64,000 nucleotides of DNA from the human T2T-CHM13v2.0 reference genome, Homo sapiens. Position 1 is the stretch's first letter, and every line of letters begins with the position of its first letter. Position numbers and translations under genes: made by a program. The notes under the pieces are model-generated. The model was not told where the DNA came from and searched no databases. It saw nothing but the letters and a program-made list of their open reading frames with translations. Positions 17,592 to 23,894 of the stretch are shown piece by piece. The stretch is from assembly GCF_009914755.1 (NCBI RefSeq), contig NC_060926.1; one strand, written 5' to 3'.

Positions 17592-17681
17592 TGATTCAAA
17601 GAAGTATGCCACACAGAATGTTACAAAAATACCAAAGAACTACAGGCAGACAGCGGATGAGAATTCTTTTAAAAAGAGATA

Positions 17682-20600
17682 CAGGTGGAGCCAAGATGGC
17701 TGAATAGGAACAGCTCCAATCTACAGCTCCCAGTGTGAGCGATGCAGAAGACGGGTGACTTCTGCATTTCCGACTGAGGTACCGGGTTCATCTCACTGGG
17801 GAGTGCCGGACAGTGGGTGCAGGACAGTGGGTGCAGCAGACTGTGCATGAGCTGAAGCAGGGCGAGGCATCGCCTCACCCGGGAAGCGCAAGGGGTCAGG
17901 GAATTCCCTTTCCTAGTCAAAGAAAGGGGTGACAGACGGCACCTGGAAAATTGGGTCACTCCCACCCAAATACTGTGCTTTTCCAACGGGCTTATCAAAC
18001 GGCACACCAGGAGATTATATCCCGCACCTGGCTTGGAGGGTCCTACGCCCACAGAGCCTCACTCATTGCTAGCACAGCAGTCTGAGATCAAACTGCAAGG
18101 CGGCAGCGAGGCTGGGGAAGGGGCGCCCACCATTGCTTAGGTTTGAGTAGGTAAACAAACCTGCCGGGAAGCTCGAACTGGGTGGAGCCCACCACAGCTT
18201 AAGGAGGCCTGCCTGCCTCTGTAGGCTCCACCTCTGGGGGAAGGGCACAGACAAACAAAAGACAGCAATAACCTCAGTAGACTTAAATGTCCCTGTCTGA
18301 CAGCTTTGAAGAGAGTAGTGGTTCTCCCAGCATGCAGCTGGACAACTGAGAACGGGCAGACTGCCTCCTCAAGTGGGTCCCTGACCCCCGAGTAGCCTAA
18401 CTGGGAGGCAACCCCCAGTAGGGTCGGACTGACACCTCACACGGCCGGGTACTCCTCTGAGACAAAACTTCCAGAGGAATGATCAGGCAGCAGCATTTTC
18501 GGTTCACCGATATCTGCTTTTCTGCAGCCACCGCTGCTGATGCCCAGGCAAACAGGGTCTGGAGTGGACCTCCAGGAAACTCCAACAGACCTGCAGCTGA
18601 GGGTCCTGACCGTTAGAAGGAAAACTAACAAACAGAAAGGACATCCACACCAAAAACCCATCTGTACGTCACCATCGTCGAAGACCAAAGGTAGATAAAA
18701 CCACAAAGATGGGGAAAAAACAGAGCAGAAAAACCAGAAACTCTAAAAATCAGAGTGCCTCTCCTCCTCCAAAGGAACGCAGCTCCTCACCAGCAATGGA
18801 ACAAAGCTGGACGGAGAATGACTTTGACGAGTTGAGAGAAGGCTTCAGAATATCAAACTACTCCGAGCTAAAGGAGGAAGTTCGAACCAATGGCAAAAGA
18901 AGTTAAACACTTCGAAAAAAAAATTAGACAAATGGATAACTAGAATAACCAATGCAGAGAAGTCCTTAAAGGACCTGATGGAGCTGAAAACCATGGCATG
19001 AGAACTACGTGACGAATGCACAAGCCTCAGTAACCGATGCGATCAACTGGAAGAAAGGGTATCAGCAATGGAAGATGAAATGAATGAAATGAAGCGTGAA
19101 GAGAAGTTTAGAGAAAAAAGAATAAAAAAGAAATGAACAAAGCCTCCAAGAAATATGGGACTATGTGAAAAGACCAAATCTACGTCTAATTGGTGTACCT
19201 GAAAGTGACGGGGAGAATGGAATCAAGTTGGAAAACACTCTGCAGGATATTATCCAGGAGAACTTCCCCAATCTAGCAAGGCAGGCCAACATTCAAATTC
19301 AGGAAATACAGAGAATGCCACAAAGATACTCCTCGAGAAGAGCAACTCCAAGACACATAATTGTCGGATTCACCAAAGTTGAAATGAAGGAAAAAATGTT
19401 AAGGGCAGCCAGAGAGAAAGGTCGGGTTACCCACAAAGGGAATCCCATCAGACTAACAGTAGATCTCTTGGCAGAAACTCTACAAGCCAGAAGAGAGTGG
19501 GGGCCAATATTCAACATTCTTAAAGAAAAGAATTTTCAACCCAGAATTTCATATCCAGCCAAACTAAGCTTCATAAGTGAAGGAGAAATAAAATACTTTA
19601 CAGACAAGCAAATGCTGAGAGATTTTGTCACCACCAGGCCTGCCTTACAAGAACTCCTGAAGGAAGCACTAAACATGGAAAGGAACAACCGGTACCAGCC
19701 ACTGCAAAAACATGCCAAATTGTAAAGACCATCAGTGCTAGGAAGAAACTGCATCAACTAATGAGCAAAATAACCAGCTAACATCATAATGACAGAATCA
19801 AATTCACACATAACAATACTAACCTCAAATGTAAATGGGCTAAATGCTCCAATTAAAAGGCACAGACTGGCAAATTGGATAAAAAGTCAAGACCCATCAG
19901 TGTGCTGTATTCAGGAAACCCATCTCACATGCAGAGACACAAATAGGCTCAAAATAAAGGGATGGAGGAAGATCTACCAAGCAAATGGAAAACAAAAAAA
20001 GGCAGGGATTGCAATCCTAGTCTCGAATAAAACAGACTTTAAAACAACAAAGATCAAAAGAGACAAAGAAGGCCATTACATAATGGTAAAGGGATCAATT
20101 CAACAAGAAGAACTAACTATCCTAAATATATATGCACCCAATACAGGAGCACCCAGATTCATAAAGCAGGTCCTGAGTGACCTACAAAGAGACTTAGACT
20201 CCCACACAATAATAATGGGAGACTTTAACACCCCACTGTCAACATTAGACAGATCAACGAGACAGAAAGTTAACAAGGATATCCAGGAATTGAACTCAGC
20301 TCTGCACCAAGCAGACCTAATAGACATCTACAGAACTCTCCACCCCAAATCAACAGAATATACATTTTTTTCAGCACCACACCACACCTATTCCAAAATT
20401 GACCACATACTTGGAAGTAAAGCACTCCTCAGCAAATGTAAAAGAACAGAAATCATAACAAACTGTCTCTCAGACCACAGTGCAACCAAACTAGAACGCA
20501 GGATTAAGAAACTCACTCAAAACCACTCAACTACATGGAAACTGAACAACCTGCTCCTGAATGACTACTGGGTACATAACGAAATGAAGGCAGAAATAAA

Positions 20601-23600: not shown

Positions 23601-23835
23601 CTAGGTGGGAATTGAACAATGAGAACACATGGACACAGGAAGGGGAACATCACACAACGGGGACTGTTGTGGGTTGGGGGAGGGGGGAGGGATAGCATTA
23701 GGAGATATACCTAATGAAATGACGAGTTAATGGGTGCAGCACACCAATATGGCACATGTATACATATGTAACAAACCTGCACATTGTGCACATGTACCCT
23801 AAAACTTAAAGTATAATAATAATAAAAACAAGAAA
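17682..23835 (+). mobile_element. Full-length L1PA4-like LINE-1 (~6.15 kb), ORF1 18709-19725 and ORF2 19789-23615 both disrupted; antisense to SPC25
   Basis: 5' UTR starts ggtggagccaagatggc (YY1 site); ORF1 and ORF2 fragments in the ORF track; 3' UTR and A-tail; 11-bp TSD AAAAAGAGATA at 17671-17681 and 23836-23846 with a TTTT/AAAA endonuclease site; retains the ~129-bp 5' UTR segment (18456-18583) lost in younger L1s. Confidence 0.97.
23376..23381 (-). terminator. SPC25: Antisense AATAAA in L1 ORF2, probable SPC25 polyA signal
   Basis: First minus-strand AATAAA downstream of the SPC25 stop (plus strand tttatt), ~515 nt after TAA. Confidence 0.65.
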
Positions 23836-23894
23836 AAAAAGAGATATGTAATAGAGAAGAAAAATAAACCGTTTTTATATACACTATTTGTATG

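What the first reader, a model, noticed from the sequence alone, without database searches (positions are those of the whole stretch)
17671..23894. SPC25 3' UTR hijacked by an antisense full-length L1 (gene-breaking configuration)
Seen: the TSD begins only 48 nt after the SPC25 stop codon. No minus-strand AATAAA occurs before the L1, and the first one lies inside L1 ORF2 at 23376-23381. About 90% of the predicted 3' UTR of a core kinetochore gene would therefore be antisense L1, and the pre-insertion UTR is displaced 6.2 kb to <=17670. Known: antisense L1s carry an ORF2 antisense polyA signal and a 5' UTR antisense promoter that can split host transcripts. Inference: a lineage-specific UTR replacement. 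SPC25 mRNA could pair with sense L1 RNA and be subject to L1-binding RBPs.
Basis: partly seen in the sequence, partly recalled or inferred. Interest (0 to 1): 0.7.

Follow-up and report, generated by a model that had tools for sequence, protein, structure and literature searches.

The report
SPC25 mRNA ends inside antisense L1
An ape-age L1 retrotransposon landed just after the SPC25 stop codon, and the main SPC25 mRNA now ends at a polyadenylation signal on the L1's antisense strand, which is a clear example of an already well-known way for genes to gain new 3' ends.

Summary
A 6.15-kb L1 lies on the + strand at 17685-23835. It has an 11-bp target-site duplication (AAAAAGAGATA) and a TTTT|AAAA nick site, and it starts 48 nt after the SPC25 stop codon. 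Its ORF1 and ORF2 are broken. On the SPC25 (minus) strand the L1 carries only one AATAAA, at 23381-23376. That hexamer is the reverse complement of ORF2 codons Phe-Ile. The RefSeq mRNA ends 22 nt downstream, at 23354. The 3' UTR is 541 nt, of which 482 nt (89%) are antisense L1.

- A diverged chr13 paralogue runs from the last SPC25 exon straight across the insertion point into sequence below 17670, so it preserves the empty site.
- The L1 keeps the ~129-bp 5'UTR segment that younger L1 lineages lack. Its terminal tree branch is 0.019.
- Together these point to an ape-specific insertion. That is inferred, because no outgroup genome was available.

"Gene-breaking" is too strong a label: the whole coding sequence lies upstream of the L1, and a transcript from the L1 antisense promoter was not tested. 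L1-derived poly(A) sites are well documented (857 L1-associated sites in Lee et al. 2008). This is an ordinary new member of a known kind.

The parts
23895..24019 (-). Coding part of the last SPC25 exon. The stop TAA is at 23897-23895.
   Evidence: sequence; joined exons give 675 nt, 224 aa plus a stop, and the acceptor is AG. Coordinates come from the hub annotation.
23354..23894 (-). Annotated SPC25 3' UTR, 541 nt and 39.7% U. It consists of 48 nt native sequence, the 11-nt duplication copy and 482 nt antisense L1.
   Evidence: Hub RefSeq table for the exon end at 23354..
23847..23894 (-). Native 48-nt UTR stub left upstream of the insertion. It contains the variant hexamer TATAAA (23879-23874) and the heptamer AACGGTT (23873-23867).
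   Evidence: One search prints the stub. That AACGGTT is the miR-451a seed match is recalled and comes from no call. PMC7880370 (passages) reports a miR-451a / SPC25 3'UTR luciferase effect without giving the site.
23836..23846 (+). 3' copy of the target-site duplication, AAAAAGAGATA.
17671..17681 (+). 5' copy of the target-site duplication, AAAAAGAGATA. It is preceded by TTTT, giving a TTTT|AAAA L1 endonuclease-type site.
17685..23835 (+). Full-length L1 of 6151 nt, antisense to SPC25, with both ORFs broken. Three bases, CAG (17682-17684), lie between the duplication copy and the L1 5' end.
17685..18708 (+). L1 5' UTR of 1024 nt. It retains a segment of about 128 nt (roughly 18445-18573) that 11 of the fetched copies lack.
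   Evidence: ORF1 ATG at 18709; those copies align as 3-771 plus 889 onward, with an 11-nt subject overlap. PMC7110667 and PMC5860796 (passages) describe the 129-bp ZNF93-site deletion.
18709..19725 (+). L1 ORF1 region, broken into open pieces in different frames.
19789..23615 (+). L1 ORF2 region (endonuclease and reverse transcriptase). It is broken by at least three frame changes and one in-frame stop at 21437-21439.
23616..23835 (+). L1 3' UTR with the L1's own AATAAA (23821-23826) and a short degenerate A tail. In SPC25 mRNA this reads as a U-rich tract followed by a C-rich tract.
23376..23381 (-). AATAAA used by SPC25. It is the reverse complement of ORF2 codons Phe-Ile (TTT ATT) within ...[17 protein letters not shown]...
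   Evidence: The hexamer is kept in 26 of 29 other genomic copies and in 2 of 2 other L1 pieces in the window.
23354..23354 (-). Annotated cleavage and poly(A) addition site, 22 nt past the hexamer. The genomic sequence downstream is not A-rich.
   Evidence: Hub RefSeq table..
17586..17670 (-). Sequence that followed the native UTR stub before the insertion. It is now displaced 6.2 kb.
   Evidence: These 85 nt alone align to chr13 locus L032 at 1656-1746, directly after the part of L032 that matches the stub. 60 of 77 columns match, score 26 against a null of 13.1 +/- 1.5, and 0 of 200 shuffles reach it. Alignment.
17253..17592 (.). Old interspersed repeat of about 340 bp with terminal inverted repeats. 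It carries the next minus-strand signals, ATTAAA 17518-17513 and AATAAA 17382-17377, which are candidate pre-insertion poly(A) signals.
   Evidence: 28-nt arms, 75% complementary; 3246 first-look candidates, with 39 other scored copies at 72-79% identity.. The name 'Tigger/MER2-type MITE' is recalled and was not tested.
8964..9053 (-). Exon of other RefSeq SPC25 transcripts, lying beyond the L1.
   Evidence: Hub table. AG acceptor and GT donor. Joining it directly to exon 6 would give a 216-aa protein with a changed C-terminus. That join is my assumption, because the transcript table was not available.

Best explanation
A full-length L1 of a pre-'129-bp-deletion' primate lineage (L1PA3/L1PA4-like by my reading) inserted by ordinary target-primed reverse transcription into the SPC25 3' UTR. 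It landed 48 nt after the stop codon, antisense to the gene, probably in the ape or great-ape stem.

RNA polymerase II transcribing SPC25 now enters the L1 from its 3' end. The first canonical poly(A) signal it meets is an AATAAA that exists only because ORF2 codons Phe-Ile (TTT ATT) read that way on the other strand. Coding constraint on ORF2 therefore pre-loads most L1 insertions with this latent antisense signal.

Cleavage 22 nt downstream gives the standard SPC25 mRNA, whose 541-nt UTR is 89% antisense L1. The old continuation of the UTR, with its next signals inside an ancient ~340-bp repeat, is left 6.2 kb downstream and out of the main mRNA. The coding sequence is untouched.

Shown: the anatomy, the origin of the hexamer, its conservation among copies, and the empty-site paralogue. 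Taken from the annotation: the mRNA end. Inferred: the date, the lineage-specificity and any regulatory consequence.
For: - L1 anatomy and duplication.
- Signal scarcity: the only minus-strand AATAAA in the L1 is at 23381-23376, and the strand count is 2 against 19.
- Codon origin of the hexamer.
- Conservation: TTTATT is kept in 26 of 29 fetched copies and at the homologous spot in both other L1 pieces of the window (2664-69 and 6401-06).
- mRNA end: RefSeq places it at 23354 (hub table), with no A-run downstream.
- Only two PAS-type hexamers of the 12 scanned occur in the UTR: TATAAA at position 16 and AATAAA at position 514.
- Empty site: the chr13 paralogue aligns at 72% over 235 columns across the junction. 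The same query with today's L1-containing mRNA stops at the junction. The flank-only test gives 0 of 200 shuffles.
- Dating: 33 private substitutions in 1773 columns (1.86%) in a three-copy comparison. The terminal branch is 0.0191 in a 28-sequence tree. The element keeps the ~128-nt segment missing from 11 fetched copies. Fernandes et al. 2020 place that deletion in the great-ape ancestor (passages).
- Known class: Lee, Ji and Tian 2008 report 857 L1-associated human poly(A) sites (30 conserved plus 827 non-conserved), with minus-strand sites outnumbering plus 2:1 (passages).
Against: - I saw no 3'-end sequencing, cDNA or long-read data. Use of the site rests on the RefSeq model alone.
- A weak TATAAA at 23879-23874, followed by the U-rich antisense L1 tail, could give an unannotated very short UTR isoform.
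- Two other RefSeq SPC25 models use exons beyond the L1 (hub table).
- Attig et al. 2018 report that MATR3 and PTBP1 repress 3'-end processing in young antisense L1s (passages). Constitutive use here runs against that general trend.
- Dating is soft. Only 31 of 31,207 candidates were scored, and 3 of the 30 fetched loci were dropped from the tree for short matches.
- The element is sister, with support 0.999, to a neighbouring L1 at 2752-6866, and they share a 0.008 branch. Its age could therefore correspond to 0.019 or to 0.027 substitutions per site.
- No outgroup genome was available.
Confidence: 0.85

Rival explanations
1. True gene-breaking. The antisense L1 splits SPC25 into an upstream transcript ending at the ORF2 antisense signal and a downstream transcript started by the L1 5'UTR antisense promoter, which uses exons 8964-9053 and 872 and below.
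For: The upstream half is present (hub table). Downstream exons with good AG/GT splice sites exist on the same strand. The L1 5' UTR is complete at 1024 nt. Hancks and Kazazian 2016 summarise the model (passages).
Against: The L1 lies after the stop codon, so the full 224-aa coding sequence is upstream and nothing coding is split. The downstream exons are annotated as parts of SPC25-promoter transcripts. No start-site data were seen. The original paper (PMC1182219) is not held, so the criteria are recalled.
Confidence: 0.08
2. The functional SPC25 mRNA mostly uses a proximal site driven by TATAAA (23879-23874), with the antisense L1 A-tail (a U-rich tract) acting as downstream element. The 541-nt L1-containing form would then be a minor or regulated isoform.
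For: TATAAA lies at UTR position 16. A U-rich run follows within 20-60 nt.
Against: RefSeq's selected transcript ends at 23354 and no transcript ending near 23850 is listed (hub table). By recall, TATAAA is a weak variant signal.
Confidence: 0.07
3. The annotated end at 23354 is an artefact, caused by internal priming or by L1-derived cDNAs mapped to the wrong copy. SPC25 transcripts would really run through the L1 to the old signals at 17518 or 17382.
For: The 482 nt are repetitive. 39 other genomic places match a 121-nt piece at 97-98% identity.
Against: A canonical AATAAA sits 22 nt upstream and there is no genomic A-run at the end, so internal priming is unlikely. The exon is contiguous with unique coding sequence. 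The model is the selected RefSeq transcript.
Confidence: 0.03

Closest known systems
TE-derived poly(A) sites of human genes, L1 minus-strand class (Lee, Ji and Tian 2008, PMC2553571; passages read)
   Same: The poly(A) site and both its flanks lie inside an L1 on its minus strand (their 'type 1' association). The signal is one of few hexamers on the A-poor strand. The site is expected not to be conserved in mouse.
   Different: Here the L1 is full-length and young, and it supplies the main annotated site of an essential gene. It is not a minor alternative site. SPC25 is not named in the text I read, and supplements were not checked.
Gene-breaking by intronic antisense L1 (Wheelan et al. 2005; paper not held, criteria recalled; summarised in PMC4859970)
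   Same: An antisense full-length L1 terminates the host transcript at an ORF2 antisense signal. An intact-length 5' UTR is available as a possible antisense promoter.
   Different: The insertion is in the 3' UTR, not an intron. The coding sequence is not divided. The promoter-driven half is untested.
MATR3/PTBP1-insulated young antisense L1s (Attig et al. 2018, PMC6108849; passages read)
   Same: It is a young, primate-specific antisense L1 within a transcribed gene, and it is pyrimidine-rich on the transcribed strand (39.7% U).
   Different: Those L1s are deep intronic and their cryptic poly(A) sites are repressed. This one abuts the last coding exon, inside the ~1-kb zone the paper says young LINEs avoid, and its site is used.
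Xenopus Spc25.L 3' UTR (Yang et al. 2020, PMC7025505; passages read)
   Same: It is the same gene. The UTR has U-rich hexamers near the signal, and in the frog these control translational activation in oocyte maturation. The human UTR has two TTTTAT hexamers, at positions 68 and 400.
   Different: The human hexamers come from L1 antisense sequence, not from ancestral UTR. No functional test exists for them.

Membership tests
LINE-1 (L1) retrotransposon, full-length primate (L1PA-type) copy | ORF1 with L1 RNA-binding domains | tested here: met
   Pfam Transposase_22 (2.3e-26) and Tnp_22_dsRBD (3.2e-47) in 19315-19722. The ORF is broken.
LINE-1 (L1) retrotransposon, full-length primate (L1PA-type) copy | ORF2 with an apurinic-type endonuclease and a reverse transcriptase | tested here: met
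   Exo_endo_phos (3.7e-22) and RVT_1 (2.1e-31). 3 of the 6 ORF pieces gave no Pfam hit.
LINE-1 (L1) retrotransposon, full-length primate (L1PA-type) copy | Insertion hallmarks: target-site duplication, A tail and a TTTT/A nick site | tested here: met
   11 of 11 identical duplication bases. TTTT precedes the 5' copy. A short degenerate A tail lies after the L1's own AATAAA.
LINE-1 (L1) retrotransposon, full-length primate (L1PA-type) copy | Named subfamily (L1PA3 or L1PA4) by diagnostic positions | not testable with these tools
   No repeat library was available. Only indirect evidence exists: it retains the ~128-nt segment, its terminal branch is 0.019, and it falls in a clade apart from the deletion-bearing copies.
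TE-derived poly(A) site / 3' UTR exaptation | Cleavage site and its -40 to +40 core lie inside the TE | tested here: met
   The end at 23354 lies 482 nt inside the L1 (hub table).
TE-derived poly(A) site / 3' UTR exaptation | The site is actually used by the host gene's mRNA | not testable with these tools
   This rests on the RefSeq selected transcript in the hub table. No read-level data were available.
TE-derived poly(A) site / 3' UTR exaptation | The site is absent from species that lack the insertion | not testable with these tools
   No outgroup genomes were available. The chr13 paralogue shows only the pre-insertion arrangement.
Gene-breaking (Wheelan et al. 2005; criteria recalled) | Antisense L1 lies in an intron between coding exons | tested here: not met
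   The L1 begins 48 nt after the stop, and all six coding parts lie upstream (hub table).
Gene-breaking (Wheelan et al. 2005; criteria recalled) | The upstream transcript ends at the L1 antisense poly(A) signal | tested here: met
   AATAAA at 23381-23376 and the mRNA end at 23354 (hub table).
Gene-breaking (Wheelan et al. 2005; criteria recalled) | A downstream transcript starts at the L1 5'UTR antisense promoter | not testable with these tools
   No start-site data were available. The 5' UTR is full length.

The most novel reading that the evidence does not exclude
The L1-derived UTR may have given apes a new post-transcriptional control over a core kinetochore gene. SPC25 mRNA carries 482 nt complementary to the 3' end of sense L1 RNAs, with up to 115 nt perfectly complementary to a very young copy. 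Where L1 is de-repressed (germ line, early embryo, tumours), SPC25 mRNA could be drawn into L1-sense/antisense duplexes, leading to editing, decay or sensing. Alternatively, the U-rich L1 antisense sequence may have replaced the ancestral U-rich elements that drive Spc25 translation in maturing oocytes.
Probability: 0.08. Interest if true: 0.6.

Novelty: new member of a known kind. Interest (0 to 1): 0.28.

Why it matters
SPC25 is an essential NDC80-complex gene, and it is widely studied as a proliferation marker. Anyone studying its 3' UTR should know three things:
- About 90% of the UTR is ape-age antisense L1. This affects work on miRNA sites, reporter constructs, probe or siRNA design, and mouse or macaque models.
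- Only the first 48 nt are ancestral.
- Short reads from the UTR can map to many L1 copies.

As biology, it is one more instance of a well-described route by which L1s donate poly(A) sites. The useful general point is that the signal is the reverse complement of a conserved ORF2 Phe-Ile codon pair, so most fresh L1 insertions carry it.

Tried and rejected
- The gene-breaking paper (PMC1182219) and Khan et al. 2006 (PMC1356131) are not held. Gene-breaking criteria and subfamily ages are therefore recalled, not read.
- Attig et al. Table S5, which traces every hg19 L1 across species, is too large to open. It could give the subfamily and species range of this element directly.
- Literature on this locus:
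  - SPC25 + UTR + LINE-1 found 1 paper, which was irrelevant.
  - SPC25 + polyadenylation found 29 papers, of which 25 were listed. None concerned the human UTR's origin, judged from titles and abstracts only.
  - One search was badly framed, because min_terms did not force SPC25, and it says nothing.
- Extra SPC25 retrocopies that would record later poly(A) use: the last-exon query found only the gene itself and chr13 (2 of 2 candidates scored). The exon-4 query found only the gene itself. The 86 nt below the L1 found only itself at the search's sensitivity.
- Whether the chr13 homology continues beyond the ~340-bp repeat: it does not rise above chance. One test scored 17 against a null maximum of 18.5-22. 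The other scored 15, reached by 19 of 300 and 25 of 300 shuffles. Whether chr13 is a 5'-truncated retrocopy or an old DNA duplication therefore stays open, and the ancestral poly(A) site is not located.
- No inverted L1 partner for the UTR exists within the window. All 4 BLAST hits are on the + strand.
- A minus-strand ORF search in the L1 5' UTR gave nothing I could equate with ORF0. I did not pursue it.
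Full report
WHAT IS THERE

The SPC25 coding sequence ends with TAA at 23897-23895 on the minus strand. The six annotated coding parts join to 675 nt, giving 224 aa plus a stop, and every internal exon has AG/GT splice sites.

Forty-eight nucleotides after the stop (23894-23847) comes the string TATCTCTTTTT, at 23846-23836. On the plus strand this reads AAAAAGAGATA, and it recurs exactly at 17671-17681. 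Between the two copies lies a plus-strand L1.

The L1 has these features:
- Its 5' end (GGTGGAGCCAAGATGG...) is at 17685, after three extra bases CAG.
- Its 5' UTR is 1024 nt, up to the ORF1 ATG at 18709.
- It has ORF1, endonuclease and reverse-transcriptase domains (Pfam, 3 of 6 ORF pieces with hits).
- ORF2 stops at 23613-23615.
- Its own AATAAA is at 23821-23826, followed by a short degenerate A tail.
- The 5' duplication copy is preceded by TTTT, the usual L1 endonuclease site.
- Both ORFs are broken. ORF2 shows at least three frame changes and one in-frame stop.

The element is real, full-length (6151 nt) and dead.

THE POLY(A) SIGNAL

Within the L1 the plus strand carries 19 AATAAA or ATTAAA hexamers. 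The minus strand carries two: AATAAA at 23381-23376 and ATTAAA at 22587-22582. No such hexamer lies on the minus strand between the stop codon and 23382.

RefSeq's selected transcript ends at 23354 (hub table), 22 nt past the AATAAA. The genomic sequence just downstream is not A-rich, so internal priming is an unlikely source of that end.

Translation of the plus strand shows that the hexamer is the reverse complement of ORF2 codons Phe-Ile (TTT ATT), in the C-terminal stretch ...[17 protein letters not shown].... The latent antisense signal is therefore held in place by coding constraint on the L1 itself. The evidence for conservation is:
- TTTATT is kept in 26 of 29 other L1 copies fetched from the same genome. 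The 3 exceptions read TTTACT, TTTATC and TTTGTT.
- It is also kept in both other L1 pieces in this window, at 2664-69 and 6401-06.

The resulting 3' UTR is 541 nt and 39.7% U. It is built from 48 nt native sequence, 11 nt duplication and 482 nt antisense L1. The L1 part comprises the A tail, the L1 3' UTR and the last 262 nt of ORF2. That is 89% L1, or 91% with the duplication.

THE DISPLACED SEQUENCE

The own genome supplied a substitute.

A search with the last coding exon plus the stub found one other place, on chr13 (locus L032, 74% identity). I aligned it to a hypothetical pre-insertion transcript. The chr13 copy runs from 18 nt inside exon 7, through the stop codon, the native stub and a single copy of the duplication. 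It then continues straight on into the sequence below 17670, giving 72% identity over 235 columns. The same alignment with today's L1-containing mRNA stops at the junction.

The 85 nt below the L1 (17670-17586), tested alone, align to L032 directly after the stub-matching part. 60 of 77 columns match, with score 26 against a shuffle null of 13.1 +/- 1.5, and 0 of 200 shuffles reach that score. This is an empty-site record of the pre-insertion arrangement.

The record has limits:
- No other SPC25 exon is present in L032, so I cannot say whether it is a 5'-truncated retrocopy or an old DNA duplication. Only a retrocopy would prove that the ancestral mRNA ran through the site.
- The homology ends in A-rich sequence exactly at the edge of an old ~340-bp interspersed repeat at 17253-17592. 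That repeat has terminal inverted repeats, 3246 first-look candidates, and 39 other scored copies at 72-79% identity. I recall it as a Tigger/MER2-type MITE, but this is untested.
- Continuation beyond that repeat is not above chance.
- The next minus-strand signals, ATTAAA 17518-17513 and AATAAA 17382-17377, lie inside that repeat. They are candidate ancestral signals only. Lee et al. note that signals in the terminal regions of DNA transposons, with Tigger1 analysed as an example, are often adopted.

AGE

Eleven of the fetched L1 copies align to this element as 3-771 plus 889 onward, with an 11-nt overlap in the subject. They therefore lack about 128 nt that this element has. This matches the 129-bp ZNF93-site deletion. 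Fernandes et al. 2020 place that deletion in the great-ape ancestor and do not find it in gibbon L1PA4 (passages).

Further dating evidence:
- In a three-copy comparison the SPC25 L1 has 33 private substitutions in 1773 columns, or 1.86%.
- In a 28-sequence maximum-likelihood tree (5387 columns; 3 of 30 loci dropped for short matches) its terminal branch is 0.0191.
- Deletion-bearing copies have branches of 0.002-0.024, with one at 0.037. The other 15 copies range from 0.0186 to 0.049, and all but L025 (5' end not covered, so segment status unknown) are at 0.0256 or above.
- The element sits in a clade apart from the deletion-bearing copies.
- Within that clade it is sister, with support 0.999, to the 5'-truncated L1 at 2752-6866 in this window. 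The two share a 0.008 branch. Its age therefore corresponds to somewhere between 0.019 and 0.027 substitutions per site.

Recalled per-lineage divergences are about 1.6-1.7% to the orangutan split and about 3.2% to the macaque split. Against these, the range points to the ape or great-ape stem. I predict the L1 is present in great apes, uncertain in gibbon and absent in macaque. This is inference. Only 31 of 31,207 candidates were scored.

HOW IT WORKS AND WHAT IT IS NOT

The mechanism is ordinary poly(A)-site capture. The insertion put 6.2 kb between the stop codon and the old signals, and the first canonical signal on the way is the ORF2 antisense AATAAA.

It is not gene-breaking in the strict sense, for two reasons:
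- The L1 is not intronic, and the whole coding sequence is upstream.
- A transcript from the L1 antisense promoter is untested.

RefSeq also lists two SPC25 models with exons beyond the L1, at 8964-9053 and at 872 and below. These have good splice sites, so some transcription passes the L1 and splices over it.

A weak TATAAA in the native stub (23879-23874), followed by the U-rich antisense A tail, could give an unannotated very short UTR.

Attig et al. 2018 report that young antisense L1s are bound by MATR3 and PTBP1, which repress 3'-end processing, and that such L1s avoid a ~1-kb zone around exons. This element is an exception on both counts. That is mildly interesting, but explicable: it lies in a terminal exon with no competing signal upstream.

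POSSIBLE CONSEQUENCES (UNTESTED)

- The UTR's L1 part is 92.4% identical to a very young L1 copy (terminal branch 0.0019), with a 115-nt exact run. Pairing with sense L1 RNA is therefore physically possible. No inverted L1 partner lies within the window.
- In Xenopus, U-rich hexamers near the Spc25.L signal drive translational activation in oocyte maturation (passages). The human UTR has TTTTAT at positions 68 and 400, both of L1 origin.
- The one reported miRNA interaction, miR-451a by luciferase assay (passages), would by my recalled seed match (AACGGTT, 23873-23867) fall in the ancestral 48-nt stub and not in the L1.

COMPARISON AND VERDICT

L1-derived poly(A) sites are a documented class. 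Lee et al. 2008 report about 8% of human poly(A) sites as TE-associated, 857 of them L1-associated, with minus-strand sites outnumbering plus-strand sites 2:1.

I found no paper describing the SPC25 case (one search was uninformative). Supplementary tables of genome-wide studies were not searchable, and they may well list it.

This is a new member of a known kind, of low to moderate interest.

Noticed in passing
window 963-6866 (+): Two L1 pieces abut in the same orientation. 963-2749 matches L1 positions 4001-5777 at 96.3%, and 2752-6866 matches positions 2016-6151 at 95.3% and ends in an A tail. The result is a direct partial duplication of ORF2 sequence. It is not the inversion that twin priming would give. 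The remainder of the first piece (positions 5778-6151) was not found after 6866.
   Followed up: partly
window 2752-6866 versus 17685-23835: The 5'-truncated L1 at 2752-6866 is the sister of the SPC25-UTR L1 in the 28-sequence tree (support 0.999, shared branch 0.008). The two lie 15 kb apart in the same orientation. Possible causes are a shared source lineage, local re-insertion, or gene conversion. Sampling was sparse, with 31 of 31,207 candidates scored.
   Followed up: partly
L032 (G000:C13:96215210-96215455 approx.): A diverged chr13 copy (about 72% identity) carries the 3' part of SPC25 exon 7, the stop codon and the old 3' flank. It lacks the other exons. It is either a 5'-truncated processed pseudogene or an ancient duplication, and it ends in A-rich sequence.
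   Followed up: partly
window 17253-17592: An old ~340-bp repeat with 28-nt terminal inverted repeats has thousands of genomic copies at 72-79% identity. It carries the two nearest minus-strand poly(A) hexamers downstream of the L1. The pre-insertion SPC25 poly(A) site may itself have been transposon-derived.
   Followed up: partly
window 26316-26770 (+): An old L1 ORF2 fragment in SPC25 intron 6 is 68.6% identical to L1 positions 5096-5567. It is also antisense to the gene.
   Followed up: no
window 8964-9053 and 1-872 (-): Exons of alternative SPC25 models lie beyond the L1, and the last one overlaps the NOSTRIN 3' end on the opposite strand. If exon 6 joined 9053 directly, the product would be 216 aa and would lack the native C-terminal 41 residues (the join is assumed).
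   Followed up: partly
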